The notes beneath the pieces were generated by a model, which was given only the letters and a program-made list of their open reading frames with translations, had not been told where the DNA came from and ran no database searches. 64,000 nucleotides of DNA, taken from Novosphingobium sp. (GTDB lineage Bacteria; Pseudomonadota; Alphaproteobacteria; Sphingomonadales; Sphingomonadaceae). Position numbers and translations under genes: made by a program. Numbering within the stretch: the stretch's first letter is position 1; every line of letters starts with the position of its first letter. Shown piece after piece: positions 1,800 through 49,231 of this stretch. Location of the stretch: the NCBI RefSeq assembly GCF_016719755.1, contig NZ_JADJYM010000004.1, one strand, 5' to 3'.

Positions 1800-1814
1800 C
1801 GGAATCTCCCACAT

Positions 1815-2886: not shown

Positions 2887-2951
2887 CTGCAAACCCCCAA
2901 TTGCCCGGCGCGTCAACCGCCAGCGTCCGCCCGCACGCCGTAATCCACGAT

Positions 2952-3434: not shown

Positions 3435-3436
3435 GG

Positions 3437-4699: not shown

Positions 4700-5457
4700 C
4701 AGTCGCGCTTGATCAGGCCGCCGTTGACGTGCCAGACCTGCCCGTTGACCCAGGCGCCATCGTCCGAGGCAAGGAAGGCTACCGCTGCGGCGATGTCTTC
4801 CGGCTGGCCCAGCCGGGTGTGCGGCACGGTCTTCAGCGTCGCCTCGACATATTCGGGGGTCAGGTGCTGGGCGACTGCTTCGGTCAGGACCACGCCGGGG
4901 CAGATGCCGTTGGAGCGGATGCCCTTCTTGCCGTACTTCGCGGCAACATGGCGGACCAGCGCGTGCAGCGCGTTCTTGGTCATCGGGTAGGCAACCTGGA
5001 AGGCGTTACCGCCGATTGCCGCGCCGGAAGAGGTGTAGATCATCGCCCCGCCGCCGCGTTCCAGCATCACCGGCAAGGCCGCCTGCGTGGCGAAGACGTG
5101 GCTCTTGCTGTTGATCGCAAAGGAACGGTCGAGCACTTCCTCGGTGCAGTGGAGCGCGTCGATGTCGCCCTCGGTCCCGCCCGCGAGGTTGGAATGATAG
5201 AAGTCGAGCCCGCCGAATTCGTCGAGCGCGGCCTGGACGATGGCCGCTTGCGATGCCGCCTTGGTTCCATCCAGATGCACGCCCACGGCGCGCCCGCCCG
5301 CTTCGCGGATCGCGGCGGCAACCTCGTTCGCCCAGGCCTCGGTAATGTCGCCGATCACCACGGCGGCGCCTTCCTCGGCCAACCGGCGCGCAGTCGCCGC
5401 GCCAATCCCGCGCCCGCCGCCCGCGACCACGCCCACCTTGCCATTCAAACCGCGCAT
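4699..5457 (-). CDS. SDR-family oxidoreductase
   Basis: Glycine-rich loop VAGGGRGIGAA and catalytic YPMTKNAL. The stop shares 1 nt with the MFS start (TGATG). Confidence 0.9.
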   Translation of the reverse strand: MRGLNGKVGVVAGGGRGIGAATARRLAEEGAAVVIGDITEAWANEVAAAIREAGGRAVGVHLDGTKAASQAAIVQAALDEFGGLDFYHSNLAGGTEGDIDALHCTEEVLDRSFAINSKSHVFATQAALPVMLERGGGAMIYTSSGAAIGGNAFQVAYPMTKNALHALVRHVAAKYGKKGIRSNGICPGVVLTEAVAQHLTPEYVEATLKTVPHTRLGQPEDIAAAVAFLASDDGAWVNGQVWHVNGGLIKRD

Positions 5458-5486
5458 CGTATCACTCCATCTGGTCGCCCGCGCGC

Positions 5487-6584: not shown

Positions 6585-6618
6585 CGTTGTTTCTCCCCGG
6601 ATTATCCGGCTTTTATGG

Positions 6619-7485
6619 TTAGAGCTTGAACAGGCGCTCGGCATTGCCGCGCAGGAACTTCGGCCAGACCTCGTCCTTCAGCGGCACGTGCTCCATGTCG
6701 GCCATGATGCGTTCCAGGCTCAGCCCCATCGGGAAATAGCCCGCGTAGATCACCTTGTCGGCGCCGCGCGTGTTGGCATAATCGATGATCGCCTTGGGGT
6801 AGTGCTTGGGGGCGAAGGCGCTGGTCGAATAATAGAGGTTCGGCCACTTCAGCATCAGCTTGACCGCCAGATCCTGCCACGGCTCCGCGCCGTGGCGCAT
6901 CACGATCTTGAGATCGGGGAAAAACCAGCAGACCTCGTCAAGATGCTCGACCTTCTGGGTTTCCATCGGGATGCGCGGGCCAGGGATGCCGACGTTGAGC
7001 AGGATCGGAATGTCCAGTTCCACCGCGCAGGCATAAAGCGGGAACATGTACTTGTGGTTGATCGCCACCTGCGGCAGCGTTCCGGCCGGGAACACCGAAA
7101 TGGCGGACAGGCCGACCTCGGCATGGATGCGCTTGATCCGGCGCACTTCCTCCATCCCCTTGTTGGGATCGCAGGGCAGGTCGAAGAAGAACCGGTCGCC
7201 GTAAAGCTCCTTGGCCCGGCGCGACGTCTCGTTATCGTTCCAGCCGATCAGCGCCTTGGCGATGCCGTGCTTGTCCATCTGCTCGACCGTCCACTTGACG
7301 TAATCGTCGGCATGGCCGGTCTGCGGCACGTCCTTGAACATGTACTGCGCCGGCATCGAGAACTGCTGGAGCGTCTGGGCGTCCTTGATCAGCGGGCGGA
7401 ACGCGGTGAACCAGTCGGACCGGTCCTCCGCCTCCGGAATCCCCAGCATGCAGTCGATGATCCCGATATCCCTGGGCATGGCCAT
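6619..7485 (-). CDS. Amidohydrolase_2 (ACMSD/LigW-type TIM-barrel) family protein, non-canonical N-terminus
   Basis: Overall pattern IGIIDCMLGIP...KIVMRHGAEPW...YAGYFPMG. Start ATG 7485 has AGGAGA 8 nt upstream. The usual N-terminal H-x-H is replaced by D-C-M-L. Confidence 0.65.
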   Translation of the reverse strand: MAMPRDIGIIDCMLGIPEAEDRSDWFTAFRPLIKDAQTLQQFSMPAQYMFKDVPQTGHADDYVKWTVEQMDKHGIAKALIGWNDNETSRRAKELYGDRFFFDLPCDPNKGMEEVRRIKRIHAEVGLSAISVFPAGTLPQVAINHKYMFPLYACAVELDIPILLNVGIPGPRIPMETQKVEHLDEVCWFFPDLKIVMRHGAEPWQDLAVKLMLKWPNLYYSTSAFAPKHYPKAIIDYANTRGADKVIYAGYFPMGLSLERIMADMEHVPLKDEVWPKFLRGNAERLFKL

Positions 7486-11755: not shown

Positions 11756-12457
11756 TCAGAACGCGTACTGCCCGGCCGGAATCACGTCGATCGTCCCGCG
11801 CTCGATGAAAGCGTCGCAGCTTTCCATCATCCGGTCGAGGTTGACCTTGAACTTCGCCGGATCGCTCGGCGCGTCGAAGAACGCCAGCGGATCGCACAGA
11901 GCGGCTTCGGGAAAGCATTCCTCCACCACGGCGGCATAGGGCGGGCAGTCCCCGGCAATCGGGCGAACGATCAGATTCTGGACATATTCGAAATTGGCCT
12001 GGGTCTCGATCGCCACCAGGGTATGCCGGTCCTGCCAGGCAGCCAGCCATGCCTGGTGAGAGAGCCTTTCGGGCCGGACCAGGAACGCCAGTTGCGCCCA
12101 GCCCGCCGTCCGCTCGCCCGGCACTGGCGGATGGGCCGTGTTGGCGATGATCGTCGATTCCGCCACCACCCAGCCGCACCAGCGCGGCCCCTGCGCGGCA
12201 AGCGCCGCGTCGACCTCGGCCCGGAACAGCGCGTTGGCACTGGGTAGCCAGAACTGGACCACCGCATCGTGCTGCACTTCCCCGCGCGACTGACGCAGGT
12301 GCGCGCCGCGCGCCGCAATCGCGTCCTCCAGATTGATCCGCAGGCCGCTTGCCCCCGCCGCCGCCAGCGCAGGCGGCAGGTTCGCCAGGAGGCGCGCATT
12401 GAACGCCGCGCGCTCCTCGGCGGGATCGCGCCAGATCAGGCAGATCAGCTTTTCCAT
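11756..12457 (-). CDS. Hypothetical protein, possible tandem EthD-like (dimeric alpha/beta-barrel) domains
   Basis: 233 aa. Two segments start like EthD proteins (KLICLIWRDPAEERAAF and AQLAFLVRPERLSHQAWLAAW). The assignment is by eye only. Confidence 0.4.
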   Translation of the reverse strand: MEKLICLIWRDPAEERAAFNARLLANLPPALAAAGASGLRINLEDAIAARGAHLRQSRGEVQHDAVVQFWLPSANALFRAEVDAALAAQGPRWCGWVVAESTIIANTAHPPVPGERTAGWAQLAFLVRPERLSHQAWLAAWQDRHTLVAIETQANFEYVQNLIVRPIAGDCPPYAAVVEECFPEAALCDPLAFFDAPSDPAKFKVNLDRMMESCDAFIERGTIDVIPAGQYAF

Positions 12458-14135: not shown

Positions 14136-14149
14136 GGGGATAAGTGGCG

Positions 14150-15844
14150 ATGAGCGGGAACTGGGACAAGGAAGTCGACGTCCTCGTCGTCGGTTCGGGC
14201 GCGGGCGGCATGCTGTCGGCGCTGGTCGCGGCGAAGAACCATGCCGACGTGCTGATCGTCGAAAAGGAAGCGCTATGGGGCGGCACCTCCGCCACTTCGG
14301 GCGCGGGCATCTGGATTCCGGCAAGCGACCAGGCCGCCGAAGCGGGCTTTCACGACAAGGTGGAGGACGCTTTCACCTATGTCCGCGCGCTGTCGGCGGA
14401 CAACGTGCCGGACGCAAACATCCGCGCCTATGTCGAGAACGCGGCCAGGATGCTGCGCTGGATGGGCGCCAATACTCCGCTGGAATACCACGCCTTTCCC
14501 TATCCCGATTACCACGCAGAGAATCCGGGCGGATCACCGACCGGCTATCGCACCCATATGCCGCTACCGCTGGACGGGCGCGCGCTGGGCGATGACGTGC
14601 GCACGCTGCGCTTCGCTTCGCCCGCCGCCTCGCTGTTCGGCTATCTCAACTGGCATTTCGACGAGACCTACATCCTGTTGTTTCGCGCCAAGGGCTGGTG
14701 GCTGCACCTGGCGAAAAGCCTGCTGCGCTATTGGCTGGACTGGCCGTTCCGCTTCACCTCGCGCAAGGACCGGCGGCTGACCCTGGGCAATGCCCTGGCG
14801 GGCGGCCTCAGGCTGGCGCTCAAGGAGGCGGGCGTGCCGCTGTGGCTGAAAAGCCCGCTCGAAGGGCTGGTCGAGGAAGAGGGCAAGGTCACCGGCGCGC
14901 TGGTCCGCCATCAGGGCAAGTTGCTGCGGATCGGCGCGCGCAAGGGCGTGGTGCTGGCCGCCGGCGGGTTCGACAAGAACCAGGCAATGCGCGACGAGCA
15001 CGCCCCGCTGTACCCCAAGGCGCTCTATTCCGGCGGCACCGGCGGCAACACCGGCGATGCGATCCGCGCGGGTCAGGAACTGGGCGCGGGCACGATGAAC
15101 ATGCAGTCGGCCTGGGCCGCGCCGGTGTTCTACGTGCCGGGCGAGGACCGGGGCCGCCTGTGCACCATCGAGCGCGCCCTGCCGGGCTGCATGATGGTCA
15201 GCCAGTCGGGCATGCGCTATCTCAACGAGGCCGCGTCCTATCACATCGTCGGCCAGCAGATGGCACGGCGCGAGCGCGAGCAGGGCGATGCCAGCCCCAG
15301 CTGGTTCGTGTTCGACCATACCTATCGCCACAGCTACCCGGTCGGCCCGGTCTATCCGCTGGTGCCCGACTGGGCCCAGAACGGGATGGTCAAGACAATC
15401 CTGAAGAAGGGCCGCACGATCGCCGAACTGGCCAGGGCAATGGGCGTCGACGCGGTCACGCTGGAAGCCACCGTCAGCCGCTTCAACCAGCACGCCGCCA
15501 AGGGCGAGGATCCCGATTTCCACCGCGGCGATGCGGCCTATGACAGGATGTATGGCGATCCGCGCGTCAGCCCCAATCCCTGCCTGCGCCCGCTGGACAA
15601 GGGACCGTTCTATGCCATGCCGATCTACCCCGGCGACATCGGCACCAACGGCGGCCTGACCACCGACGCAAGGGCGCGGGTGCTGGGCGCGGACGGCAAG
15701 CCGATCCCCGGGCTCTACGCCATCGGCAACAGCGCGGCATCAGCCATGGGCGAAAGCTATCCGGGCGCCGGGGTCACCATAGGGCCCGCGCTGACTTTCG
15801 GCTACATCGCCGCGCAGGACATGACCGGCAGCAACGCGGAGTAG
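14150..15844 (+). CDS. FAD-dependent dehydrogenase, KstD-like (3-oxosteroid 1-dehydrogenase family)
   Basis: FAD fold VDVLVVGSGAGGMLSALVAA...EKEALWGGTSATSGAGIWIP, about 564 aa. ATG 14150 is preferred (GGGGA 9 nt upstream). The track start GTG 14144 is also possible. Confidence 0.8.
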   Translation: MSGNWDKEVDVLVVGSGAGGMLSALVAAKNHADVLIVEKEALWGGTSATSGAGIWIPASDQAAEAGFHDKVEDAFTYVRALSADNVPDANIRAYVENAARMLRWMGANTPLEYHAFPYPDYHAENPGGSPTGYRTHMPLPLDGRALGDDVRTLRFASPAASLFGYLNWHFDETYILLFRAKGWWLHLAKSLLRYWLDWPFRFTSRKDRRLTLGNALAGGLRLALKEAGVPLWLKSPLEGLVEEEGKVTGALVRHQGKLLRIGARKGVVLAAGGFDKNQAMRDEHAPLYPKALYSGGTGGNTGDAIRAGQELGAGTMNMQSAWAAPVFYVPGEDRGRLCTIERALPGCMMVSQSGMRYLNEAASYHIVGQQMARREREQGDASPSWFVFDHTYRHSYPVGPVYPLVPDWAQNGMVKTILKKGRTIAELARAMGVDAVTLEATVSRFNQHAAKGEDPDFHRGDAAYDRMYGDPRVSPNPCLRPLDKGPFYAMPIYPGDIGTNGGLTTDARARVLGADGKPIPGLYAIGNSAASAMGESYPGAGVTIGPALTFGYIAAQDMTGSNAE

Positions 15845-15865: not shown

Positions 15866-15886
15866 CCCCTCCCCGCCGGGGAGGGG
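15866..15886. repeat. Stem-loop CCCCTCCCC-gcc-GGGGAGGGG (9-bp stem); REP-like, possible bidirectional terminator
   Basis: Read directly, between convergent genes ending at 15844 and 15897. Confidence 0.6.
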
Positions 15887-15896: not shown

Positions 15897-16520
15897 CTAG
15901 TCCGCCCGTACTTTCACCTTGGGCGCCGCCGCCCCGCGCCGCATCGTTTCCAGGAACTTTTCCAGCGGCGCAGGCTCCGCCACCGGGCCGCCGTGGTCGC
16001 CCGTCCGCGCCCAGAACTCGGCAAAGCTGGGGAACAGCTTGTGGAAGTTGCCCTCGCTCCATTCGGTGCCCGGCCAGCGCATCTTGGCATCACCGATCGG
16101 CGGCTTGTTGAGGTCGGTCGCGTACCAGTAGAGCGGCAGGCGCCGCGCAAAATACCAGCGCCCGTCCACCCGCACATAGTCGTCCGAATACATCATCTGC
16201 ATGATGACCCATTCGTCGCCGGTTTCGTGCTCGTTCTTGGAATAGACGATCCCGTGGGCATGGTCGGGATCGTCGAATTCGATCACGTGCCCGCCGATGT
16301 GGTGCGATGTGCCGGTGAAGGGGGAACGCAGCGTGCGGTCCATGTAGGCCCGCAGCGCCTGCCGACCCGAGGCATCCTTGCCGACGCGAACATCGGCGGG
16401 AAACAAGCTGACCATCGCGTCCATGTCGCGCATGTCGAGCGCGAGGGCGTATTTAGCGGGGAGCTGGCGGATCGCGTCGAGCGATTCCAGGCGGTCGATG
16501 CGGGCTTCAAGAGTGGTCAT
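15897..16520 (-). CDS. NTF2-like / SnoaL_4-type protein with C-terminal extension
   Basis: 207 aa. Signature RIDRLESLDAIRQLPAKYALALDMRDMDAMVSLF. The start overlaps the upstream stop as ATGA (16517-16520). Confidence 0.75.
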   Translation of the reverse strand: MTTLEARIDRLESLDAIRQLPAKYALALDMRDMDAMVSLFPADVRVGKDASGRQALRAYMDRTLRSPFTGTSHHIGGHVIEFDDPDHAHGIVYSKNEHETGDEWVIMQMMYSDDYVRVDGRWYFARRLPLYWYATDLNKPPIGDAKMRWPGTEWSEGNFHKLFPSFAEFWARTGDHGGPVAEPAPLEKFLETMRRGAAAPKVKVRAD

Positions 16521-18409
16521 GTTGTCGGCTCGTACCAGATGGGAGAGGTATAGGCGCGCTCCTGCGCGACCAGTGGAACTTCGCGCGGCAGCTTCAGGCC
16601 GTATCGCACCGCGTCATAGGCGACCCAGCGCGGGGTCGGAATCTCGATCACGCGCACGTAATAGAACGCGCGGGCACCCGGATCGAAGGCGGGATCGCGC
16701 CACACCGTCGTCAGTGCGGGCGCGCCGATGGTGTTGGCGTAGGACGGTTTCGACAGGTCGACGGTGTTGCCCACCGCCGGAACCTTGCCGCCGGAAACCT
16801 TGCGTGTTTCGGGCGAACTCCAGGTGACGTCGAACACCTGTTCGTGGCTGACGCCGCCCCGGTCGACCCAGCCCTTGACCACCTGCACCCGGTCGAGATT
16901 GGCGCCGATCGGATCCTTGAGCGCCGAGATCAGGAAAGCGGGCGCCCCGCCCTTGCGCGCGCCCAGCACGCCGCCCATCGGCACGCCGCGCGCGTAACCG
17001 GCCTTGACCCAGTCGCCGGACAGGTCGCTGCCCGAGAAGTCCCAGCCGCCGAAGACCCGCACGGTCATGCGCGGGCCGGTGGTGGCGTAGACCTCGCGCC
17101 GCGTCATCGCGTCGAACAGCGCCTCGCGCGTGTTGCCCCGCGCCCAGACCGCGGCATAGCCGCCCGCAAGGTATTGCCAGTTGTAGCGGCCCAGGTCCGA
17201 ACCCATGTCCATCGCCGGGGTGACGCGGTCCTTGCCCTGCGGCGTCGGTTCGTTGCCGGTGTGCTTGCCGAAGAAATTGTCCTCGTCCGCCGTGGCGAGG
17301 CCAGTGTGGCTGTCGGTCGATCCGATCAGGCCGAAGCGATAGGGGTTCACCCCGGTGCGGCTTTCGATCAGCAGCCCGCGCTTCAGCGCCTCGCGCACAT
17401 AGTTGCCGCCGTACATGTCGGGCGTAGTCGCCTGCCTGGCGTTGAGGTTGGCCTTGTCCCAGCCCTCCACGCCGAAGCCCGCAAACTCGTCGGTGGGGGA
17501 CAGGAACGGGTGCGCTTCGCTGTCGCCCTTGATCTGGGTGATCTCGACCAGCGGTTCGCGCGCGGCGCGGCGCCGGGCCTGGGCTGCGCTCATCGGCCCG
17601 CCGCCGGGGCCGGTAAGCTCGAACATCAGGCCATTGGAAACATTGCTGTTGTGGGGGATTGCCAGCACCCGGCCCTGCGTGCTGCGCTCGTAGCCTTCCA
17701 TGTAGGACCACAGGTCCTCAGGCTTCTCGCTGTACTGCGAAAGGTAAGGCATGACCTTGCCGGCCTTGTCCGCCCCGTCGCGGAACAACACGACACGGTG
17801 CAGGTTGTTGCCGCCGGGCATCGAGGTGTATTCGAACCCGATGAAGGCGGTGAACCGGCCCGGATCGTTGTAATCCTCAACCGTGCGCAGGTGCTGCTGC
17901 CAGATGTCGCGGCTGTCCTCGGCCAGCTTCTTCGGGTCGGCAAGGCCCTTGGCCTTCGGACTGCCGGCAAAGTCGATCATCTCGCCCATCGCCTTGGCGG
18001 ACTGCTCCGGCCCGGCGTTGAACATGTCGTGCCAGCGCTTCATCGTATCGTTGGGCAGCAGGAAGCGCGGGGCGTCGGCCAGTTGCTTGACGAAGCCCAG
18101 ACCGTCGGAATGATCCGCGATCACCAGGAAATCGAGCGGCCGGGCAAGCCGGGCCTTGACCCCCATGGTCGAGGTCACCTCCTCGCCCCGGGCAAAACGC
18201 AGCGCGTCGGCGGGCATCAGCCGGTTGCCGAACCCGAAGGCATCGGGCGAATTGGCCGAGTGGAGGTGGGTATCGCCCCAGTAGACCCGCTCCGGATAGG
18301 CGCTGAGCGTGACCTGCGAGGAGTCCTTAGGCATCGGCGGTCCGCGCAAGGCATCGCAGCCCGCCAGCGCGGCAAGCGTCAGCGCGAGTGCTGCCCGGGC
18401 GCCCCTCAT
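16517..18409 (-). CDS. DUF3604-like protein, predicted lipoprotein
   Basis: YWGDTHLHSANSPDAFGFG is the DUF3604/PHP-like signature as I recall it. The N-terminus MRGARAALALTLAALAGC carries the lipobox L-A-G-C. Start ATG 18409 overlaps the P450 stop as ATGA. Confidence 0.7.
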   Translation of the reverse strand: MRGARAALALTLAALAGCDALRGPPMPKDSSQVTLSAYPERVYWGDTHLHSANSPDAFGFGNRLMPADALRFARGEEVTSTMGVKARLARPLDFLVIADHSDGLGFVKQLADAPRFLLPNDTMKRWHDMFNAGPEQSAKAMGEMIDFAGSPKAKGLADPKKLAEDSRDIWQQHLRTVEDYNDPGRFTAFIGFEYTSMPGGNNLHRVVLFRDGADKAGKVMPYLSQYSEKPEDLWSYMEGYERSTQGRVLAIPHNSNVSNGLMFELTGPGGGPMSAAQARRRAAREPLVEITQIKGDSEAHPFLSPTDEFAGFGVEGWDKANLNARQATTPDMYGGNYVREALKRGLLIESRTGVNPYRFGLIGSTDSHTGLATADEDNFFGKHTGNEPTPQGKDRVTPAMDMGSDLGRYNWQYLAGGYAAVWARGNTREALFDAMTRREVYATTGPRMTVRVFGGWDFSGSDLSGDWVKAGYARGVPMGGVLGARKGGAPAFLISALKDPIGANLDRVQVVKGWVDRGGVSHEQVFDVTWSSPETRKVSGGKVPAVGNTVDLSKPSYANTIGAPALTTVWRDPAFDPGARAFYYVRVIEIPTPRWVAYDAVRYGLKLPREVPLVAQERAYTSPIWYEPTT

Positions 18410-19650
18410 CGCATCGTCACCCGCAGCGGCAGGTGCTTGAGCCCGCCGGTGTGGTTGGTCTTGACCCATTCCGGTTCCCCGGTCAGCTCGATGCTCTCGA
18501 CCCGCAGCGCGATTTCGCGGAACAGCGCCTCGACTTCCATTTCGGCAAGGATCCGCCCCAGGCAGTGATGCGCGCCATAGCCGAAGCCGAGGTGGCGGTT
18601 GGGATTGCGGTCGATCCGGAACTCGTCCGGCGCATCGAAGGCGCGCTCGTCGCGATTGGCCGACAGGTAAAGGATCGCGACCTGCTCACCCTTGGCGATC
18701 TTCTGACCGGCGACTTCCGTATCTTCAGCCGCGGTGCGCATGAAGTGGCGCACGGGGGTGGCCCAGCGGAACATTTCCTGCGCGGCGCTCTCGATCAGGC
18801 CTGGATCGGCCTTGAGCTTGGCAAACTCCCCCGGATTGCGCGCCAACTGCATCATGCCCACGCCCACGGTGGAACTGGTGGTATCGTGCCCGGCGGCGGC
18901 GAGCAGCATGCCGTAGGACAGCGTTTCCATGTCCGAAAGCGGTTGGCCATGGATCGTGGCGGTGGCAACGACCGACATCAGATCGTCCTTGGGATCGGCG
19001 CGGCGCTGCGCCACCACTCCGCCGAGGTAGCCGAAGAACTCCATTGCGGTCGCCAGGCCGAAGTCCCCGTTGGCGTTGCGTTCGGGATCGCTCGCGCCGA
19101 ACAGTTCCTGCGTCAGGCGCAGCACCAGCGGCGCGTCGCTGTCGGGTAGGCCAAGGATCGAGGTGATCATGATCAGCGGATAGGGGACCGCGATCTCCTC
19201 GACGAAATCGAACTCGCCCCCGGGTGCCAGGCTTTCCAGCTTGTCGACATATTCGCTGGCCAGCAGCTTCATCCGCTCGCGCAGAGTATTGAGAAACTTC
19301 GAGTTGAACCACGACTGGGTCAGCTTGCGGTGATCGCGGTGATCGCTGCCGTCCATGTCGAGCAGGGTCCGCACCGGCCCGGTGCGGGTGCCAAACTGGG
19401 CGATGGTGCGGTCCTCGAACCAGGCGGGCAGCAGGGTGAGGCGCGGGGCATTGAGCCAGAGCTTGCCGTTGCGCTCGATGTCCATGATGTCCTTGTGGCG
19501 CAGCACGGCCCAGAACGGACGGTAGGGTTCCTGCTCGACCCACAGCACATCACCTTGCGCGCGCATTTCCTTGAACTTGGCCGCGATCGCCGCCTCGTCG
19601 GCATAGGCGGCGGCGGAGAAGGCGTCGATGCTGGTGACGGGCCTGATCAT
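18406..19650 (-). CDS. Cytochrome P450 monooxygenase
   Basis: 414 aa. I-helix AAAGHDTTSS, ExxR (EMFRW) and heme loop FGYGAHHCLGRILA. No signal peptide. Confidence 0.93.
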   Translation of the reverse strand: MIRPVTSIDAFSAAAYADEAAIAAKFKEMRAQGDVLWVEQEPYRPFWAVLRHKDIMDIERNGKLWLNAPRLTLLPAWFEDRTIAQFGTRTGPVRTLLDMDGSDHRDHRKLTQSWFNSKFLNTLRERMKLLASEYVDKLESLAPGGEFDFVEEIAVPYPLIMITSILGLPDSDAPLVLRLTQELFGASDPERNANGDFGLATAMEFFGYLGGVVAQRRADPKDDLMSVVATATIHGQPLSDMETLSYGMLLAAAGHDTTSSTVGVGMMQLARNPGEFAKLKADPGLIESAAQEMFRWATPVRHFMRTAAEDTEVAGQKIAKGEQVAILYLSANRDERAFDAPDEFRIDRNPNRHLGFGYGAHHCLGRILAEMEVEALFREIALRVESIELTGEPEWVKTNHTGGLKHLPLRVTMR

Positions 19651-20990
19651 GGGCCGATCCTTTCGATGGCGGGCAAACGGTAACGTCCTTCGAGCGCTTC
19701 GGCGCGCGGCAGGTAGAGCCGCATCACAGCGTGGAACGCGCCCGGCGGCACCGGCAGCCAGTTCGACGCGCCTTCGCGCGGGCGGATGTTCGAGAGAACG
19801 AGGGTGAGCGATCCATCCTTGCCGTATTTCAGGCCCCCGGTCCGGTCGCCGATCGCATAGCGGCGGATCGGGTTGGCGATCAGCTGCGAGGTGGCGCGGT
19901 CATAGGCTGTCAGCGACCAGAAGGCGTCGACCGGCGGCAGCGCGCCCCTGGCGAAACGGAGGCGGTAGCTGCGCTTCCCGTCCAGCGGCTCGCCCCGATC
20001 GTCCGTGATCGCGGCGGGATAGATCGATTCCTCGGGCGCATTGACATAGCCGCCGCGCGCGACTTCGGCGCGCAGCAGGAAATCGTCGCCCGGATCGGCC
20101 ATGGCGCCCGACCACATCCAGCCGTTGTCCACTCGCCGCGGCCGGAAGCCGCGCTTGCCAAGGACCTGTGGCCCGACCTTCAGCGCGCAGCCCAGCCCCA
20201 GTTTCTGCGCATCGGACAGCTTGCCCGCGTCGAACTGTGCGCCGGGGCCAAAGCCCGCGACATCGAACTGGGCCATCAGCGCGGTTTCGCCCGGCTTGGC
20301 GGGAACCGAGCGCAGCGCCCGGTTGAGCAGATCGAAGTAGGCGAGGCTGTCGAACGGCTGAAGCGGGGCGGCTTCGCTGACCGGTTCGCCTGCGGCGCCG
20401 TTCATCCGGATCGCCTGGGCAAGCCGCCGGGCCTCGGCTAGGTCAGTCTCTCCTGTAACCAGCACGCGGCCGAGCATCCAGGCCGTGTCGGTCGGCAGGC
20501 GGAACGCGGTGTAGCCTTCCGGCACCGCCCCGCCGGTTGGCCCGACCAGCGCATAACGCGCCGCCTTGCCGCCATTGGTCCGCGTGCCCAGATGCCATGG
20601 CCTGGCATAGAGGTCCATGAAGGCCAGCGTGTAATAGCGCCTGCCCATGTCCGGCACGTCGAGCAGCACCGGCCCTTTCGACAGGTCGATCCAGGCGTTG
20701 AGGTACAGCGTGTCGGAATTGGCCGCGCGCAGCTGGCCCTGTGTCTCAGGGGTCAGCAGATGCGGATAGACCGCGATCGTGTTGACCGGCGCCACCACCG
20801 GCTGGTCCGCGCTGACCCGGTGCGTTTCATTGAAGCGCTGCTTCAGCAGATCGACCAGTGGGTAGCCATAGATGTAGCCCTGCAAGCCAATCGACTGCGC
20901 CAGCGCGGCCTCAGGCTCCAACGCCGCGGCCTGGCACTGCGATGCCTCGGGAAGGGCGGAGGCCGCCACGGCAAGCGCAAGTCCGAACAC
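19647..20990 (-). CDS. DUF1254/DUF1214-like two-domain protein with hydrophobic signal-like N-terminus
   Basis: GYIYGYPLV (DUF1254-like) and DAFWSLTAYD (DUF1214-like). GTG start at 20990 with GGAGGGG immediately upstream. N-terminus VFGLALAVAASALPEA. Confidence 0.7.
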   Translation of the reverse strand: MFGLALAVAASALPEASQCQAAALEPEAALAQSIGLQGYIYGYPLVDLLKQRFNETHRVSADQPVVAPVNTIAVYPHLLTPETQGQLRAANSDTLYLNAWIDLSKGPVLLDVPDMGRRYYTLAFMDLYARPWHLGTRTNGGKAARYALVGPTGGAVPEGYTAFRLPTDTAWMLGRVLVTGETDLAEARRLAQAIRMNGAAGEPVSEAAPLQPFDSLAYFDLLNRALRSVPAKPGETALMAQFDVAGFGPGAQFDAGKLSDAQKLGLGCALKVGPQVLGKRGFRPRRVDNGWMWSGAMADPGDDFLLRAEVARGGYVNAPEESIYPAAITDDRGEPLDGKRSYRLRFARGALPPVDAFWSLTAYDRATSQLIANPIRRYAIGDRTGGLKYGKDGSLTLVLSNIRPREGASNWLPVPPGAFHAVMRLYLPRAEALEGRYRLPAIERIGP

Positions 20991-21142
20991 ATCCCCTCCA
21001 TTTGCGTAGTGTTATTTTCTCCTTGCTACGCTATCGTATTTCTAATTGCGTTACAATTGCTATTCGCGTATTTATGGAAATCAGTTTCTACGCATAATGA
21101 CCCGGCCCTCAGAGCCGGGCCGTGCGCATGAGGGAGGGAATC
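20991..21142. promoter_or_regulatory. AT-rich divergent promoter island D with five TACGC-type boxes
   Basis: ATTTGCGTAG 21000-21009, CTACGCTAT 21026-21034, AATTGCGTT 21044-21052, ATTCGCGTA 21062-21070, TACGCATAA 21089-21097. It lies between the DUF1254 operon and the TonB receptor. Confidence 0.55.
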
Positions 21143-23461
21143 ATGAACCACAAGCTCGCTACCGTTTCTCTGGCCGCGATGGCCGCCTGGGCCGCCAGTC
21201 CGGCCCTCGCGCAGGACACCGCGCAGGACAGCGACGATGGCCTCGGCGCGATTGTCGTCACCGCCCAGAAGCGTTCGGAAAACATCCAGGACGTGCCGAT
21301 CGCGATTTCGGCGGTGGGCAGCGAATACCTTCAAAGCCGGGGCATCGATTCGATCGACAAGCTGGGCACGATTGCCCCCAACGTGAAGATCGAACGCGCG
21401 CCCGCCTCCAAGACCATCTCGCAGGTCTCGATCCGCGGCTCGGTTACGATCAACCCGGCGATCACCTGGGAACCGGCGGTCGGCCTCTATCTCGACGGCG
21501 TCTACATCGCCAAGGCGCAGGGCTCGATCTTCGACGTCGCCGACCTCGAACGGGTCGAACTGCTGCGCGGACCGCAGGGCACGCTCTATGGCCGCAACGC
21601 GCTGGCGGGCGCGGTCAACCTCGTCACCCGCAAGCCCTCGGGCGAACTGGGCGGATCGTTTGACGCGACCTATGGCAGCTTCAACGACGTGCGCCTGCGC
21701 GGCGTGCTCGACCTGCCGCGCATGGGCATCTTCTCGGCCAAGGTGTCGGGCCAGTATCGCCGCCGCGACGGGCTGATCAAGCTCTCGCCCAAGTCGCCTT
21801 CAGGGGCGGAGCGCACCGATTCGATCAATTCGGGCAGCTTCATGGTCCAGCTGCGAGCCGAACTGTCGGACGCGATCACCGCCGACTATACCTATGACTA
21901 CACCAGGTCGGACCAGGACCCGCCGTTTTCGCAGCTGCTGCGGGTCAACCGCAATGGCGAATTCCGCGACATCTTCGATCCGAAATCGCCGGGCTATGCC
22001 TATGGCGGCGCCTATTTCCCGCTGGACAAGTACACCAGCGCCAGCCGCGTCAGCACCGCCGCGATCGACGCGCCGGCCTATGAGAAGTCGCGCAGCTATG
22101 GCCACGCGCTGACGATCACCGCTGACCTGGGCCTGGCGACTCTGAAGTCGATCACCGCCTACCGCGATCTCGCCTGGGCGGACGGGCTCGACCTCGATGG
22201 CTCGCCGCTGCCGGTAGCCTTCACCCAGCGCATCACCGACTACAACGCCTGGAGCCAGGAACTGCAACTGACCGGCGCGAGCGCCAATGACCGCCTGAGC
22301 TATGTCGCGGGCGCGTTCTATTTCAGCGAGAAGGCCGAGACGCTCAACCCGCAGACCTATTTCGGCGGCGGCACCGATCTGCAATCGAACTATGGCTCGA
22401 ACACCAAGGCCTTCGCGCTCTACGCCCAGCTGGATTACAAGCTGACCGAGGCCTTCAAGGTCAGCCTGGGCGGGCGCTACACGCACGAGGCGAAGGACAT
22501 CAGCCGCTATTTCCGGGTCAACTATGACGCCGCAAACGGGATCACGACGCCGCTGGTGGTTGCCAACCTGCCCTATGGCGCGGTGCCGGACGCGAAGTAC
22601 AACAACTTCTCGCCCGCGCTGACCCTTGCCTATGAAGTGTCGGAACAGGTCAACGTCTATGCCCGCTTCGCGCGCGGCTTCAAGTCGGGCGGGTTCAATG
22701 GCGAGACCAACGTGTTCGTCGCCCCCACCACCGCCTGCCCCAGCGGCGCGCCGGAACTGTGCAATCCCTACCGTCCGGAAAAGGTCGACAGCTACGAGCT
22801 GGGCCTCAAGACCCGCCTGCTCGACAACCGCCTGGTGTTCAACGTCGCCGCCTTCCGCGACGAGCACAAGGACATGCAGCTGTCGGTCTTCACCGCCACC
22901 ACCGGGGCGGCCTCGATCATCACCAATGCCGGTGCAGCGCGCATCCAGGGGCTGGAATTCGAAGCCGTGCTGCGCCCGGTCGACGGGGTGACGCTCAACG
23001 GCTCGCTGGCGATCCTCGATTCGAAATACAAGCGCTTCATCGATGGCGGGGTGAACGTGGCCGGCAACCGTGCCTTCCCGCACGCGCCCAAGACCACGGC
23101 ATCGGCCGGGTTCGACTGGGAAGTGGTCAAGGGCGACTGGGGCAGGCTCAACCTCTATGGCGATCTCAGCTATGTCTCGCGCTACTATACCTTCCCCTAT
23201 GCGCTGACCGGCACTTCGCCGTCCGACCAGCTGGCCGGATCGAGCGAATCGAAGGGCCGCACGATCGTCAACCTGCGCGCCAGCCTTGCCGACATTCCGC
23301 TGGGCGGAGCCCGGGCCGAGCTTTCGGTCTTCGTGCGCAATCTTACCAAGGAAGCCGATCCGTCGAACTTCATCGACTTCGGCCCGGGCTTTGGCGGGAT
23401 CCTGCTGGGCTACTTCCCCGAACCGCGCACCTTCGGGGTGACGGCGGGGATCCGGTTCTGA
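21143..23461 (+). CDS. TonB-dependent outer-membrane receptor
   Basis: Signal peptide MNHKLATVSLAAMAAWAASPALAQ, plug motif IVVTAQKRSENIQDVPIAISAV, about 770 aa of beta-barrel-type sequence ending in a terminal F (GIRF). ATG 21143 has GGAGG 5 nt upstream. Confidence 0.93.
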   Translation: MNHKLATVSLAAMAAWAASPALAQDTAQDSDDGLGAIVVTAQKRSENIQDVPIAISAVGSEYLQSRGIDSIDKLGTIAPNVKIERAPASKTISQVSIRGSVTINPAITWEPAVGLYLDGVYIAKAQGSIFDVADLERVELLRGPQGTLYGRNALAGAVNLVTRKPSGELGGSFDATYGSFNDVRLRGVLDLPRMGIFSAKVSGQYRRRDGLIKLSPKSPSGAERTDSINSGSFMVQLRAELSDAITADYTYDYTRSDQDPPFSQLLRVNRNGEFRDIFDPKSPGYAYGGAYFPLDKYTSASRVSTAAIDAPAYEKSRSYGHALTITADLGLATLKSITAYRDLAWADGLDLDGSPLPVAFTQRITDYNAWSQELQLTGASANDRLSYVAGAFYFSEKAETLNPQTYFGGGTDLQSNYGSNTKAFALYAQLDYKLTEAFKVSLGGRYTHEAKDISRYFRVNYDAANGITTPLVVANLPYGAVPDAKYNNFSPALTLAYEVSEQVNVYARFARGFKSGGFNGETNVFVAPTTACPSGAPELCNPYRPEKVDSYELGLKTRLLDNRLVFNVAAFRDEHKDMQLSVFTATTGAASIITNAGAARIQGLEFEAVLRPVDGVTLNGSLAILDSKYKRFIDGGVNVAGNRAFPHAPKTTASAGFDWEVVKGDWGRLNLYGDLSYVSRYYTFPYALTGTSPSDQLAGSSESKGRTIVNLRASLADIPLGGARAELSVFVRNLTKEADPSNFIDFGPGFGGILLGYFPEPRTFGVTAGIRF

Positions 23462-23466
23462 CCGCG

Positions 23467-23961
23467 ATGACGCTGGAACAGCGGCTCCAGCGGCTGGAGG
23501 ACGACCGCGCGATCCGCGACCTCAAGGCCCGCTACCTGCGCGCCTGCGACGGCAAGGACCCGGAAATGGTCCGCGACTGCCTGCTGCCCGAAGGGGCGGT
23601 GATTGCCTATGACGGCTTTCCCGCCTTCGCCGGCCGCGACGGCTTCGTCGCGGTCTATGCGGAAATGGGCTGCGTCCCAGGCGTGTTCGACATCCACCAC
23701 GGCGCCAACGGGGTGATCGGCTTCGACGGGCCGGACCGCGCCCGGGGGCAATGGTCGCTGCTGTTCCACACCATCAACCTCGTCTCGCGCACGCTGACGC
23801 AGATGGGGGTCGAGTACGAGGACGTCTATGTCCGGCAGGACGGTCGCTGGTGGATCGCCGAGACGCGCTCGCGCCGCCAGTCCTGCCTGATCCACGCGGT
23901 CGATGCCGATGGTCGGCCCACGGTGACAGTCATGGGCGAGCCACCCGCAACATTCGGATAG
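23467..23961 (+). CDS. NTF2-like / SnoaL_4-type protein
   Basis: 164 aa. Signature RLQRLEDDRAIRDLKARYLRACDGKDPEMV. ATG lies 5 nt after the receptor stop. It is the 3' part of the track ORF 22759-23961. Confidence 0.75.
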   Translation: MTLEQRLQRLEDDRAIRDLKARYLRACDGKDPEMVRDCLLPEGAVIAYDGFPAFAGRDGFVAVYAEMGCVPGVFDIHHGANGVIGFDGPDRARGQWSLLFHTINLVSRTLTQMGVEYEDVYVRQDGRWWIAETRSRRQSCLIHAVDADGRPTVTVMGEPPATFG

Positions 23962-23973: not shown

Positions 23974-24714
23974 ATGCGCTTTGCAGGCAAGAAGGTGCTG
24001 GTAACGGGCGCGGCCTCGGGGATCGGGCGGGCCACCGCCTTGCTCTTCGCGCGCGAGGGGGCCATGCTGACCATCGGCGACATCAACGAGGCGGGCCTGG
24101 CTGAAACCGCCGCAATGATTGGCGGCACCGTAAGGGCTGTTCCCTATGATGCGGAAGACCATGCCTCGTGCCGCGCGCTGGTCGAGGCGGCGAGCGCAAA
24201 TGGCCTCGACGTGCTGTGCAATGTCGCGGGAATGCTCAAGTGGGGGCCAACCGCCACCTATGCGGTGGAAGATTTTGAGCGGCTGCTGCGGATCAACACG
24301 ACCAGCGTCTTCGTGCTGTGCCAGGCGGCGCTGCCGCACCTGCTGGCAACGAAGGGCAACATCGTCTGCGTGGCCTCGACCGCCGGGCTTTCCGGCATTC
24401 CCTATTCGGTTGCCTATTCCGCCTCGAAGCACGCGGTGGTCGGCATGATCAAGTCGATGGCGCTGGAATATGCCGCTGCGGGCGTGCGGATCAACGGGGT
24501 CTGCCCGGGCCAGGTCGCCACCCCGATGACCAGGGCTGCACCGCCGCAGGGCGAGATCGACTGGCCGCTGGTGATGCGCAACGTGCCCAAGCTGGCCGAT
24601 GGCATCTGCGATCCGGAAGACATCGCCGAAGCGCTGGCCTTCCTCGCCTCAGACGCTTCGCGCAAGACCACCGGCGCGCTGCTGGCGGTGGATGGCGGAC
24701 AACTGGCGGGCTGA
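23974..24714 (+). CDS. SDR-family oxidoreductase
   Basis: VTGAASGIGRAT and YSASKHAV. GGGAGGAAAGG lies upstream of the ATG. Confidence 0.9.
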   Translation: MRFAGKKVLVTGAASGIGRATALLFAREGAMLTIGDINEAGLAETAAMIGGTVRAVPYDAEDHASCRALVEAASANGLDVLCNVAGMLKWGPTATYAVEDFERLLRINTTSVFVLCQAALPHLLATKGNIVCVASTAGLSGIPYSVAYSASKHAVVGMIKSMALEYAAAGVRINGVCPGQVATPMTRAAPPQGEIDWPLVMRNVPKLADGICDPEDIAEALAFLASDASRKTTGALLAVDGGQLAG

Positions 24715-48078: not shown

Positions 48079-49224
<1,146 letters not shown>

Positions 49225-49231
49225 TCAGGGC

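What the first reader, a model, noticed from the sequence alone, without database searches (positions are those of the whole stretch)
15897..20990. DUF1254/DUF1214 - P450 - DUF3604 lipoprotein - NTF2 operon joined by three ATGA overlaps
Four minus-strand genes are joined by 4-nt ATGA stop/start overlaps at 19647-19650, 18406-18409 and 16517-16520, which implies tight stoichiometric co-expression. The first product starts with a hydrophobic signal-like segment. The third carries a lipobox (LAGC) after MRGARAALALTLAA. The P450 and the NTF2 protein have no export signal. A cytoplasmic P450 is thus embedded between two envelope-targeted proteins of unknown function. No ferredoxin or ferredoxin reductase is recognisable anywhere in the 64 kb. 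The operon is divergent from a TonB-dependent receptor and shares the box array with it. I know of no described role for DUF1254/DUF1214 or DUF3604 proteins in steroid or other hydrophobic-substrate catabolism. This is my best candidate for an undescribed envelope capture/processing module feeding a P450.
Basis: partly seen in the sequence, partly recalled or inferred. Interest (0 to 1): 0.72.

Follow-up and report, generated by a model that had tools for sequence, protein, structure and literature searches.

The report
Variable accessory operon in steroid-degradation cluster
The four overlapping genes are real, but they are the fullest version of a mix-and-match accessory operon in sphingomonad steroid-degradation clusters, in which a P450 travels with one uncharacterised protein and a lipoprotein hydrolase is an optional extra.

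Summary
Four intact minus-strand genes (DUF1254/DUF1214, CYP108-like P450, DUF3604, a 207-aa NTF2/SnoaL_4 protein) are joined by three ATGA overlaps and lie divergent from a TonB-dependent receptor. They sit in a sphingomonad steroid/bile-salt cluster with no ferredoxin or ferredoxin reductase in 64 kb.

The fixed four-part module is only partly supported. Across about 90 related loci, only the last gene (SnoaL207) is constant:
- all four genes: the window's species plus one MAG;
- DUF1254/1214-P450-SnoaL207: 14 loci;
- DUF1254/1214-DUF3604-SnoaL207: 3;
- DUF1254/1214-SnoaL207: 11;
- DUF3604-SnoaL207-DUF3604': 4;
- SnoaL207 directly beside the receptor: at least 15.

The P450 always follows DUF1254/1214 (16 of 16). 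Their trees agree, and the pair recurs in reversed order in an unrelated locus, so these two look like real partners.

DUF3604 is a conserved lipoprotein with a PHP/amidohydrolase-like His/Asp/Glu pattern. Export of DUF1254/1214 is doubtful: its hydrophobic start is only 12 residues and has no basic residue.

Best reading: an optional, co-regulated accessory cassette that widens steroid substrate range. Neither DUF family has a described role in steroid catabolism in the searchable literature. Interest is moderate.

The parts
19647..20990 (-). DUF1254+DUF1214 protein, 447 aa. First gene of the operon and the co-inherited partner of the P450. Whether it is exported is unresolved.
   Evidence: Pfam domains. 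Structure model pLDDT 91; it matches only uncharacterised structures 3u07, 2p3y/3vb9 and 6ans. N-terminus analysed. Cys19 is invariant and Cys268 nearly so.
18406..19650 (-). Cytochrome P450, 414 aa, CYP108-like. Cytoplasmic, with no linked ferredoxin or reductase.
   Evidence: Pfam. Best solved relatives are P450terp (1cpt, 8.5e-88) and CYP108D1 (3tkt). Identity to CYP108A1 is 39.8%. FGYGAHHCLG and AAGHDTTS motifs read from the translation.
16517..18409 (-). DUF3604 lipoprotein, 630 aa. Putative periplasmic PHP/amidohydrolase-like metal-dependent hydrolase. An optional member of the cassette.
   Evidence: Pfam 794 bits. Lipobox conserved. Invariant H48xH50, D99-H100, E193, H204, H253 and D366xH368. 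Model pLDDT 80.5 with weak Foldseek matches to PHP domains 7ug9 and 3e0f. The paralogue is linked to Rotamase_2 and HupE/UreJ.
15897..16520 (-). SnoaL207: NTF2/SnoaL_4 protein, 207 aa. The only constant gene of the cassette. Probably a steroid dehydratase of the BaiE / scytalone-dehydratase type, with a C-terminal extension of about 70 aa.
   Evidence: Pfam. Solved-structure matches 3ef8 (1.5e-7), BaiE 4l8p (3e-4) and LinA, with Tyr/Asp/His aligned to BaiE. Present in every related locus at 71-95% identity.
20991..21121 (.). Shared divergent control region. It carries four conserved boxes: TGCGTAG 21094-21088, TACGCGAA 21070-21063, ATAGCGTAG 21034-21026 and CTACGCA 21009-21003 (read on the minus strand). 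These form two inverted repeats with spacers of 16-17 nt. The Shine-Dalgarno GGAGGGG lies at 20999-20993.
   Evidence: The alignment of 15 loci shows the boxes in all cassette types A-E.
21122..23461 (+). Divergent TonB-dependent receptor. It is followed by a BaiE/Hsh2-like SnoaL_4 gene (23464-23961) and an SDR (23974-24714).
   Evidence: Plug plus TonB_dep_Rec_b-barrel domains. BaiE match 2.7e-10 for the 165-aa protein. SDR.
15866..15886 (-). G+C-rich hairpin (11-bp stem) just after the SnoaL207 stop codon, between the convergent genes. A possible terminator.
   Evidence: -22 kcal/mol, but z-score -0.4 against shuffles and only UUUG after the stem. The scan did not call it.

Best explanation
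This is a genuine, translationally coupled four-gene operon in the steroid (bile-salt-type) catabolic island of a Novosphingobium-like sphingomonad. It is transcribed divergently from a TonB-dependent receptor operon and shares conserved operator-like boxes with it. It is the fullest form of a variable accessory cassette, not a fixed machine.

Shown:
- The last gene, a 207-aa NTF2-fold protein of the BaiE / scytalone-dehydratase type, is the constant core.
- A co-inherited pair (DUF1254/1214 plus a CYP108-like P450) and a DUF3604 lipoprotein are optional add-ons.
- These add-ons have been gained or lost repeatedly among close relatives, each time leaving tight or overlapping junctions.

Inferred working:
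1. The receptor brings a subset of steroid substrates into the periplasm.
2. DUF3604, anchored to a membrane by its lipid tail, acts there as a metal-dependent hydrolase on a substituent of the steroid.
3. After transfer to the cytoplasm, the P450 hydroxylates the steroid using ferredoxin and reductase encoded elsewhere, as reported for EdcA in N. tardaugens. DUF1254/1214 assists this step, for example by binding or handing over the substrate.
4. The NTF2 protein then carries out a dehydration or isomerisation.

The optional genes widen the substrate range. They do not form an obligatory complex.
For: Operon anatomy and domains.

Steroid context:
- two KshA-like Rieske oxygenases, HsaA-like oxygenase, flavin reductase and HsaD-like hydrolase genes;
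- KstD-like flavoproteins (NF009478, 515 bits);
- many SDR, SnoaL_4, acyl-CoA dehydrogenase, thiolase and CoA-ligase genes;
- an MFS transporter.
The content resembles Chol11 cluster 2 (bioRxiv 10.1101/2021.05.19.444901).

Cassette survey. Loci with the whole cassette:
- A, all four genes: 2;
- B, without DUF3604: 14;
- C, without P450: 3;
- D, DUF1254/1214-SnoaL207: 11;
- F, DUF3604-SnoaL207-DUF3604': 4;
- SnoaL207 directly beside the receptor: at least 15.
Type B loci L088-L092 are as close to the window (89-95% amino-acid identity across the shared genes DUF1254/1214, P450, SnoaL207 and TBDR) as the type A locus L006.

P450-DUF1254/1214 link: 16 of 16 cassettes with a P450 have DUF1254/1214 upstream. 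The NJ trees are congruent. The pair occurs in reversed order in a non-steroid context in L178.

The operator boxes are conserved in all cassette types.

DUF3604: conserved lipobox; invariant His/Asp/Glu pattern; weak PHP fold matches; its paralogue is followed by a periplasmic PPIase-like gene (52 of 76 loci) and a HupE/UreJ metal permease gene (50 of 76).

Precedents: EdcA, a P450 without linked Fd/FdR, and EdcT, a receptor used for steroid uptake (PMC7793797).
Against: - No substrate is known for any of the four proteins.
- The hydrolase assignment for DUF3604 rests on a residue pattern and Foldseek matches with E about 0.02. No sequence or profile match to any solved PHP protein was found.
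- The compartment of DUF1254/1214 is unresolved. If it is periplasmic, a direct role with a cytoplasmic P450 is hard to picture.
- DUF3604 and SnoaL207 keep an ATGA overlap in all 9 loci where they are adjacent. This hints at a tighter link than 'optional add-on', even though the two products are predicted to be in different compartments.
- The NJ trees cannot tell whether the four-gene form is ancestral (followed by differential loss) or derived.
- The survey was seeded on close relatives. It may miss other architectures.
Confidence: 0.6

Rival explanations
1. The four products form one obligatory envelope capture-and-processing module: two exported proteins take the steroid from the TonB receptor and feed the cytoplasmic P450, and the overlaps enforce fixed stoichiometry.
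For: Three ATGA overlaps. Divergent receptor with shared boxes. DUF3604 is a true lipoprotein. The arrangement is stable in the window's species across 22 contigs from different samples and in L006.
Against: The four-gene set is found only in that species and one MAG. 14 of the 16 complete P450-bearing cassettes lack DUF3604, 3 cassettes have DUF3604 without the P450, 11 have neither, and at least 15 have only the NTF2 gene. Export of DUF1254/1214 is doubtful. Overlaps of this kind are common in the window.
Confidence: 0.1
2. The functional unit is a two-protein cytoplasmic system. In this subfamily DUF1254/1214 has lost its signal peptide and works directly with the CYP108-like P450, as a substrate-binding, product-processing or otherwise essential accessory protein. 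DUF3604 is an unrelated passenger in the same regulon.
For: 16 of 16 co-occurrence. Congruent trees. Order-independent adjacency in a non-steroid locus, L178. The N-terminus is about 18 residues shorter than in homologues with canonical signal peptides and has no basic residue. The model is confident from about residue 11, and Leu13, Pro14 and Cys19 are invariant. No Fd/FdR is nearby in any locus examined.
Against: DUF1254/1214 occurs without a P450 in 14 of 30 cassettes. P450 orthologues at 72-73% identity occur without it in Chakrabartia. The wider family is secreted. A small-x-small motif before Leu13-Pro14 could still be a very short cleavable signal. No cofactor motif suggests a redox role.
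Confidence: 0.3
3. DUF3604 is not catabolic. Like its widespread paralogue, it serves envelope maintenance. In some lineages it was recruited into the steroid regulon to protect the envelope against detergent-like bile salts.
For: The paralogue at 60-65% identity is present in many sphingomonads, outside steroid clusters. It is linked to a periplasmic PPIase-like gene and a HupE/UreJ permease gene. DUF3604 is dispensable in most cassettes.
Against: The steroid-cluster copy forms its own orthologue group (67-93% identity) and always overlaps SnoaL207 by ATGA. In Parasphingorhabdus it comes with a second, divergent copy and a GMC oxidoreductase, inside a cluster of steroid-type enzymes.
Confidence: 0.15
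4. The cassette acts on a non-steroid hydrophobic substrate, such as a terpenoid (as for P450terp), and merely sits inside the steroid island.
For: The closest solved relatives are CYP108A1 (alpha-terpineol) and CYP108D1. L178 carries the P450-DUF1254/1214 pair outside any steroid cluster.
Against: In about 30 loci the cassette occupies the same slot between the receptor/BaiE-like/SDR operon and the KstD-like/SDR genes, under the same conserved boxes. Steroid C26-monooxygenases of the CYP125, CYP124 and CYP142 type are the next-best solved relatives.
Confidence: 0.1

Closest known systems
edc estrogen cluster of Novosphingobium (Caenibius) tardaugens: P450 EdcA and TonB-dependent receptor EdcT (PMC7793797)
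   Same: A sphingomonad steroid cluster organised as divergent operons. A cytoplasmic P450 acts on a steroid with no ferredoxin or reductase in the cluster. A TonB-dependent receptor is implicated in steroid uptake.
   Different: edcA is followed by hydratase, lipid-transfer and enoyl-CoA hydratase genes, not by DUF1254/1214, DUF3604 or an NTF2 gene. No IOR (EdcC-type) or extradiol dioxygenase was found beside the P450 here. Sequence identity to EdcA was not tested.
P450terp (CYP108A1) and CYP108D1
   Same: The best solved relatives (8.5e-88 and 1.8e-85). Class I soluble P450 with the usual Cys-ligand loop, I-helix acid-alcohol pair and ExxR motif.
   Different: Identity is 39.8% over 397 aligned positions, right at the family threshold. 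The terp operon encodes its own terpredoxin and reductase (from memory). None is found here.
Bile-salt degradation clusters of Sphingobium sp. Chol11 and relatives (cluster 2, nov2c218-232; Hsh2, Hsh3)
   Same: Same type of island: MFS transporter, KshA-like Rieske oxygenase, amidohydrolase, two CoA ligases, a TonB-dependent receptor, NTF2-type (Hsh2/BaiE-like) and EthD-type (Hsh3-like) proteins. Verified bile-salt degraders S. herbicidovorans MH and N. aromaticivorans carry homologous flanking genes.
   Different: The papers that could be read mention no DUF1254/1214, no DUF3604 and no P450 in these clusters. MH carries only the SnoaL207 orthologue (71% identity).
BaiE / Hsh2 7-alpha-hydroxysteroid dehydratases and scytalone-dehydratase-like NTF2 proteins
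   Same: SnoaL_4 fold. Tyr, Asp and His align with BaiE.
   Different: The match to BaiE is weak (3e-4). The neighbouring 165-aa SnoaL_4 protein is the better Hsh2/BaiE candidate (2.7e-10). SnoaL207 has an extra C-terminal region of about 70 aa.
PHP-domain metal-dependent phosphoesterases (for example RNase AM 7ug9, BAD_1165 3e0f)
   Same: DUF3604 shows the ordered invariant pattern HxH ... DH ... E ... H ... H ... DxH. PHP domains are the only enzyme fold recovered by Foldseek.
   Different: There is no detectable sequence or profile similarity. DUF3604 is much larger (630 aa), with long insertions and a C-terminal beta-sandwich. It is a lipoprotein.

Membership tests
Cytochrome P450 (bacterial class I, CYP108-like) | Pfam p450 match above the gathering score | tested here: met
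   91 bits against a cut-off of 22.8. 360 solved P450s match at E<=1e-20.
Cytochrome P450 (bacterial class I, CYP108-like) | Heme-thiolate loop FxxGxxxCxG, I-helix acid-alcohol pair and ExxR motif | tested here: met
   FGYGAHHCLG, AAGHDTTS and EMFRW read directly in the translation and aligned to P450terp.
Cytochrome P450 (bacterial class I, CYP108-like) | At least 40% identity to a CYP108 member (nomenclature rule, from memory) | tested here: inconclusive
   39.8% over 397 aligned positions to CYP108A1.
Cytochrome P450 (bacterial class I, CYP108-like) | Linked ferredoxin and ferredoxin reductase genes, as in the terp and cam operons | tested here: not met
   No Fe-S ferredoxin motif in a coding frame and no tblastn match. 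The only Pyr_redox_2 protein is TrxB. None is present in L085, L086 or L178 either.
DUF1254/DUF1214 family | Both Pfam domains in N-to-C order, and the fold of VPA0106/VPA0735 | tested here: met
   122.6 bits each. 3u07 at 1.1e-24 by sequence. Foldseek 1.4e-30, TM 0.68-0.75.
DUF1254/DUF1214 family | Canonical N-terminal signal peptide, as in distant homologues | tested here: inconclusive
   S. meliloti, R. litoralis and B. tropicus homologues have signal peptides of 24-27 aa with basic n-regions. This subfamily has Met plus 12 hydrophobic residues and no Lys or Arg, and the model is confident from about residue 11.
DUF3604 family | Full-length Pfam DUF3604 match | tested here: met
   793.7 bits, profile positions 3-591 of 591.
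Bacterial lipoprotein | Basic n-region, hydrophobic core and lipobox [LVI][ASTVI][GAS]C near residue 20, conserved in relatives | tested here: met
   MRGARAALALTLAALAGC in the window. LAGC, LSAC, VAGC, LAAC, AAGC, LSSC or LLGC in 12 of the 13 relatives whose N-terminus could be read; the remaining one has an uncleaved anchor instead. Acylation itself cannot be tested here.
PHP / amidohydrolase-superfamily metal-dependent hydrolase (for DUF3604) | Ordered metal-ligand motifs (HxH, H, E, H, H, DxH) on a barrel fold | tested here: inconclusive
   Invariant H48, H50, D99, H100, E193, H204, H253, D366 and H368 in 45 sequences. Foldseek to PHP domains gives only E about 0.02. No sequence or profile hit.
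BaiE/Hsh2-type NTF2 steroid dehydratase (for SnoaL207) | SnoaL_4/NTF2 fold with the catalytic Tyr-Asp-His of BaiE (residue roles from memory of Bhowmik et al. 2016) | tested here: inconclusive
   SnoaL_4 77.7 bits. Tyr24, Asp29 and His73/74 align with BaiE, but the whole match is only 3e-4. Activity was not tested.
SusC/SusD-like receptor-lipoprotein uptake pair | The lipoprotein gene is constantly adjacent to the TonB-dependent receptor gene | tested here: not met
   DUF3604 is not adjacent to the receptor. It is absent from most loci that keep the receptor.
   Two of about 35 complete multi-gene cassettes carry all four, besides same-species contigs.
   Only overlaps, a single upstream control region and a possible hairpin after the last gene can be shown.

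The most novel reading that the evidence does not exclude
DUF1254/DUF1214 proteins of this subfamily are dedicated, co-evolving partners of a CYP108-like P450. That would be a previously unrecognised class of P450 accessory protein, acting in substrate capture or hand-over or in another essential role. DUF3604 would be a periplasmic metallohydrolase lipoprotein that pre-processes conjugated steroids after TonB-dependent uptake. Together they would give first functions to two large 'unknown' families and fill gaps in sphingomonad steroid uptake and early transformation.
Probability: 0.25. Interest if true: 0.75.

Novelty: new variant of a known kind. Interest (0 to 1): 0.5.

Why it matters
How sphingomonads take up bile salts and other steroids, and how they remove the side chain, is still open. 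The published work on Chol11 and N. tardaugens says so explicitly.

This locus places two large uncharacterised families, DUF1254/DUF1214 and DUF3604, inside the steroid regulon next to a TonB-dependent receptor. It shows which of them behave as partners (P450 with DUF1254/1214) and which are optional.

Natural variants with every combination of the genes exist. They amount to a ready-made comparative experiment: strains of types A to E can be compared on panels of steroids to assign substrates.

If the P450-DUF1254/1214 partnership is real, it would also matter for P450 biocatalysis. Missing accessory proteins are a common reason why such enzymes fail when expressed in other hosts.

Tried and rejected
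- Near-identical annotated record: none in the plasmid collection. Only partial 75-79% DNA matches to sphingomonad megaplasmids. The PP1Y record has no annotation.
- DUF3604 against solved structures by sequence and by profile: nothing. Pfam at E<=5 gave no PHP or amidohydrolase hit. NCBIfam has no model for DUF3604 or DUF1254/1214.
- Foldseek for DUF1254/1214 returned only structural-genomics proteins of unknown function and weak bicupin-like matches. No functional lead.
- General association of DUF3604 with DUF1254/1214 or P450 outside the steroid slot: rejected. Only 3 and 2 of 76 paralogue loci have such a gene within 10 kb.
- P450 and DUF1254/1214 homologues on plasmids are all below 47% and 40% identity and not adjacent in the rows inspected.
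- EdcA-type context: rejected, because the neighbours differ.
- Ferredoxin reductase candidate at 48079-49209: rejected, it is TrxB.
- Consensus promoter and terminator scan: uninformative. The hairpin after the operon is not better than shuffles.
- Supplementary tables of the Chol11 proteome paper are not held.
- A 'sulfate ester' theme was noted but judged anecdotal. It rests on arylsulfatases around a Roseobacter DUF1254 gene, an alkylsulfatase near a DUF3604 paralogue, and Sulfotransfer_3 genes beside two cassettes.

Full report
**1. Observation**

The four minus-strand ORFs exist as described:
- 19647-20990: 447 aa, GTG start preceded by GGAGGGG;
- 18406-19650: 414 aa;
- 16517-18409: 630 aa from the ATG at 18409;
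- 15897-16520: 207 aa.

The sequence shows ATGA stop/start overlaps at 19650-19647, 18409-18406 and 16520-16517.

Pfam confirms every domain call: DUF1254 (1.6e-35) plus DUF1214 (1.4e-35), p450 (9.5e-26), DUF3604 (1.3e-238, full profile) and SnoaL_4 (1e-21). All four are intact.

The divergent gene at 21122-23461 is a TonB-dependent receptor with Plug and barrel domains.

NTGA overlaps are frequent in this G+C-rich window, at about 8 of 47 same-strand neighbour pairs. Three in a row marks a tight operon rather than something unusual in itself.

**2. Context**

The window is a sphingomonad steroid-degradation island. It encodes:
- two KshA-like Rieske oxygenases, an MFS transporter, an amidohydrolase, CoA ligases and several SDRs;
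- an EthD protein, further SDR and SnoaL_4 proteins, a second KstD-family flavoprotein, and HsaA-like, flavin reductase and HsaD-like proteins;
- beta-oxidation-type genes.

The flavoprotein at 14144-15844 scores 515 bits against the 3-ketosteroid-delta-1-dehydrogenase model.

The gene content resembles 'cluster 2' of the bile-salt degrader Sphingobium sp. Chol11 (MFS, Rieske oxygenase, amidases, CoA ligase, TonB receptor Nov2c232). Its authors say that uptake and side-chain removal are unresolved.

The closest public relatives are Novosphingobium MAGs at 93-95% protein identity. The identical DUF1254/1214 protein occurs on 22 metagenomic contigs.

**3. No redox partners**

A six-frame scan for 2Fe-2S, 3Fe-4S and 4Fe-4S motifs, and tblastn with putidaredoxin-, adrenodoxin- and FdxA-like sequences, found no ferredoxin in a coding frame.

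The only Pyr_redox_2 protein (48079-49209) is thioredoxin reductase (TIGR01292, 388 bits against a cut-off of 343). It sits beside a PhyR-type stress locus outside the island.

The N. tardaugens edc cluster also lacks Fd/FdR for its P450, EdcA, and its authors tie the receptor EdcT to steroid uptake (PMC7793797).

**4. The four proteins**

*P450.* The best solved relatives are P450terp/CYP108A1 (8.5e-88) and CYP108D1 (1.8e-85). They are followed by a reconstructed CYP125 ancestor, P450tol, and steroid C26-monooxygenases. Identity to CYP108A1 is 39.8% over 397 aligned positions, at the edge of the family. The Cys-ligand loop, the I-helix acid-alcohol pair and ExxR are present. There is no signal peptide.

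*DUF3604.* The lipobox after a basic n-region is conserved, both in the steroid-cluster orthologues and in a widespread paralogue group. In the steroid group the residue after the Cys is Asp.
- No solved structure matches by sequence or profile.
- An AlphaFold model (pLDDT 80.5, pTM 0.87) gives only weak Foldseek matches. The enzyme-like ones are PHP-domain phosphoesterases (7ug9, 3e0f/3o0f; E about 0.02). The C-terminal part matches Ig-like beta-sandwiches.
- In 45 sequences the invariant residues include H48-x-H50, D99-H100, E193, H204, H253 and D366-x-H368. I read this as the ordered metal-ligand pattern of PHP/amidohydrolase-type hydrolases. That reading is an inference.
- The paralogue (60-65% identity) is followed by a Rotamase_2 gene in 52 of 76 loci and a HupE/UreJ metal-permease gene in 50 of 76. 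This fits a periplasmic metalloenzyme.

*DUF1254/1214.* The model is confident (pLDDT 91) but matches only uncharacterised structural-genomics proteins (3u07, 2p3y/3vb9, 6ans).
- The N-terminus is conserved as Met plus about 12 hydrophobic residues, then Leu-Pro, acidic residues and an invariant Cys19. It has no Lys or Arg.
- Only residues 1-10 are disordered in the model.
- Distant homologues from S. meliloti, R. litoralis and B. tropicus carry canonical signal peptides of 24-27 aa.
- Export of this subfamily is therefore unproven. It may use a minimal signal, or it may have become cytoplasmic.

[quoted passage not shown] Tyr, Asp and His align with BaiE. The 165-aa SnoaL_4 gene just after the receptor is the better BaiE/Hsh2 candidate (2.7e-10). 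Hsh2 is an NTF2-type enzyme and Hsh3 an EthD-type enzyme in Chol11 (PMC12175502).

**5. Is the linkage conserved?**

I seeded one survey on DUF3604 (80 genome loci) and one on SnoaL207 (80 metagenome loci). I added context look-ups for homologues of DUF3604, the P450 and DUF1254/1214. Genes were then mapped by tblastn.

The slot between the receptor operon and the convergent KstD-like/SDR genes always ends in SnoaL207 (71-95% identity) but is otherwise variable:

| Type | Architecture | Loci with complete cassette |
|---|---|---|
| A | DUF1254/1214-P450-DUF3604-SnoaL207 | window and L006 |
| B | DUF1254/1214-P450-SnoaL207 | 14 (11 distinct), e.g. Altererythrobacter sp. H2 |
| C | DUF1254/1214-DUF3604-SnoaL207 | 3 |
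| D | DUF1254/1214-SnoaL207 | 11 |
| F | DUF3604-SnoaL207-DUF3604' | 4 (at least three from Parasphingorhabdus), plus one locus (L135) with SnoaL207-DUF3604' only |
| E | SnoaL207 directly divergent from the receptor | at least 15, e.g. Novosphingobium sp. PP1Y |

Further points:
- S. herbicidovorans MH, a verified bile-salt degrader, also carries SnoaL207 alone, in a different neighbourhood.
- A 530-aa exported ORF with no Pfam match follows SnoaL207 in 11 loci of several types, but not in the window.
- Type B loci L088-L092 are as close to the window as the type A locus L006 (89-95% identity for shared genes). DUF3604 presence therefore varies between very close relatives.
- The other 76 DUF3604 loci belong to the paralogue group and almost never have DUF1254/1214 or a P450 nearby.

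**6. What is linked**

Every cassette with a P450 has DUF1254/1214 immediately upstream (16 of 16).
- NJ trees of the two proteins are congruent. Cassette types interleave on the DUF1254/1214 tree, which implies co-inheritance of the pair plus repeated gain or loss of the P450 and DUF3604.
- In a metagenomic contig (L178) the same two subfamilies are adjacent in reversed order (P450, then DUF1254/1214). They lie next to an IclR-type regulator and an MFS transporter, with no receptor, no SnoaL207 and no steroid genes.
- Adjacency that survives a change of gene order and context is good evidence of a functional partnership.
- It is not absolute. DUF1254/1214 occurs without a P450 in 14 of 30 cassettes, and Chakrabartia has a 72-73% identical P450 without it.

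DUF3604 and SnoaL207 keep an ATGA overlap in all nine loci where they are adjacent. I cannot explain this, given their different predicted compartments.

**7. Regulation**

The 131-bp intergenic region carries four boxes that form two inverted repeats, TGCGTAG-N17-(C)TACGCG and GCGTAG-N16-CTACGC.

They are conserved in position and sequence in 15 aligned loci of types A-E, whichever gene comes first. All cassette variants therefore appear to belong to the same regulon as the receptor.

**8. Interpretation**

The evidence favours an optional accessory cassette over a fixed four-protein machine. The mechanism I think most likely is the one set out step by step under Best explanation, where shown and inferred steps are marked.

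- Shown: anatomy, domains, lipobox conservation, cassette variability, the P450-DUF1254/1214 linkage and the shared boxes.
- Inferred: every step of the mechanism, including uptake by the receptor, periplasmic hydrolysis by DUF3604, hydroxylation by the P450 with help from DUF1254/1214, and a dehydration or isomerisation by SnoaL207.

The main rival to the DUF1254/1214 part is that this subfamily is cytoplasmic and a direct P450 partner. For DUF3604, the rival is an envelope-protective rather than catabolic role.

**9. Comparison and novelty**

Steroid islands with TonB receptors and orphan P450s are known in sphingomonads. What is new:
- two large uncharacterised families are recruited into that regulon;
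- a P450 pairs specifically with DUF1254/1214;
- the operon has a mix-and-match architecture.

Full-text searches found no functional work on DUF3604, DUF1254 or DUF1214, and none linking them to steroids.

I rate it a new variant of a known kind. Interest is moderate at 0.5. It is not low, because the natural variants make the question directly testable.

Noticed in passing
window 20991-21121: Four conserved boxes forming two inverted repeats (TGCGTAG 21094-21088 / TACGCGAA 21070-21063; ATAGCGTAG 21034-21026 / CTACGCA 21009-21003, read on the minus strand). They lie between the operon and the receptor gene and are conserved in 15 related loci whatever the cassette type. Probably the operator of an unidentified regulator.
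   Followed up: partly
window 23464-23961 and 11756-12457: The 165-aa SnoaL_4 protein after the receptor matches BaiE at 2.7e-10 and is a likely Hsh2-type 7-alpha-hydroxysteroid dehydratase. The 233-aa EthD-domain protein may be an Hsh3-type 7-beta-dehydratase, as described for Chol11. Neither was compared directly with Hsh2 or Hsh3.
   Followed up: partly
L004 9224-10813; L180 9964-11577; also L106, L121, L124, L128, L130, L133, L139, L141, L149: An ORF of 530-537 aa with a hydrophobic N-terminus and no Pfam match follows SnoaL207 in 11 loci of several cassette types. It is a further optional cassette member, absent from the window.
   Followed up: partly
L168/L169 8001-11722 and 50-52 of the 76 loci L009-L084: The widespread DUF3604 paralogue (60-65% identity) forms a conserved triad with a Rotamase_2 (PPIase-like) gene and a HupE/UreJ metal-permease gene. 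Many loci carry tandem DUF3604 copies.
   Followed up: partly
L176 (R. litoralis pRLO149_94) 1245-7314; L168 2549-4531; L003 1-600; L180 3172-4335: A loose sulfate-ester theme. A DUF1254 gene lies between two arylsulfatase genes. An alkylsulfatase lies near a DUF3604 paralogue. Sulfotransfer_3 genes, each followed by an SDR, a protein of 361-365 aa (faint DUF1214 hit in L180) and a Polyketide_cyc2 protein, lie beside two cassettes. Anecdotal.
   Followed up: no
L178 6001-8605: The P450 (74% identity) is followed by a DUF1254/1214 protein of the same subfamily, in reversed order and outside any steroid cluster, next to an IclR-type regulator and an MFS transporter.
   Followed up: yes
window 717-1814 and 5487-6644: Two KshA-like Rieske oxygenases with no KshB-type reductase anywhere in the window. 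This is a second case of oxygenases whose electron donors must be encoded elsewhere, as reported for Chol11 and N. tardaugens.
   Followed up: no
window 48079-54235: Thioredoxin reductase, an AI-2E-family transporter and an ECF sigma / HWE kinase / PhyR-type general stress response locus interrupt the run of steroid and beta-oxidation genes; beta-oxidation-type genes resume downstream (about 55-64 kb).
   Followed up: no
window 15866-15886: An 11-bp G+C-rich hairpin (-22 kcal/mol) lies between the convergent SnoaL207 and KstD-like genes. It is followed only by UUUG and is no better than shuffled sequence.
   Followed up: yes
L003 12549-14642; L007, L008, L140, L135: In the Parasphingorhabdus-type loci (L003, L007, L008; also L140 and L135, metagenome contigs of unnamed origin), SnoaL207 is followed by a second, divergent DUF3604 copy (about 30% identity, 697 aa). 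In L003, L007, L008 and L140 a GMC oxidoreductase is also nearby.
   Followed up: partly
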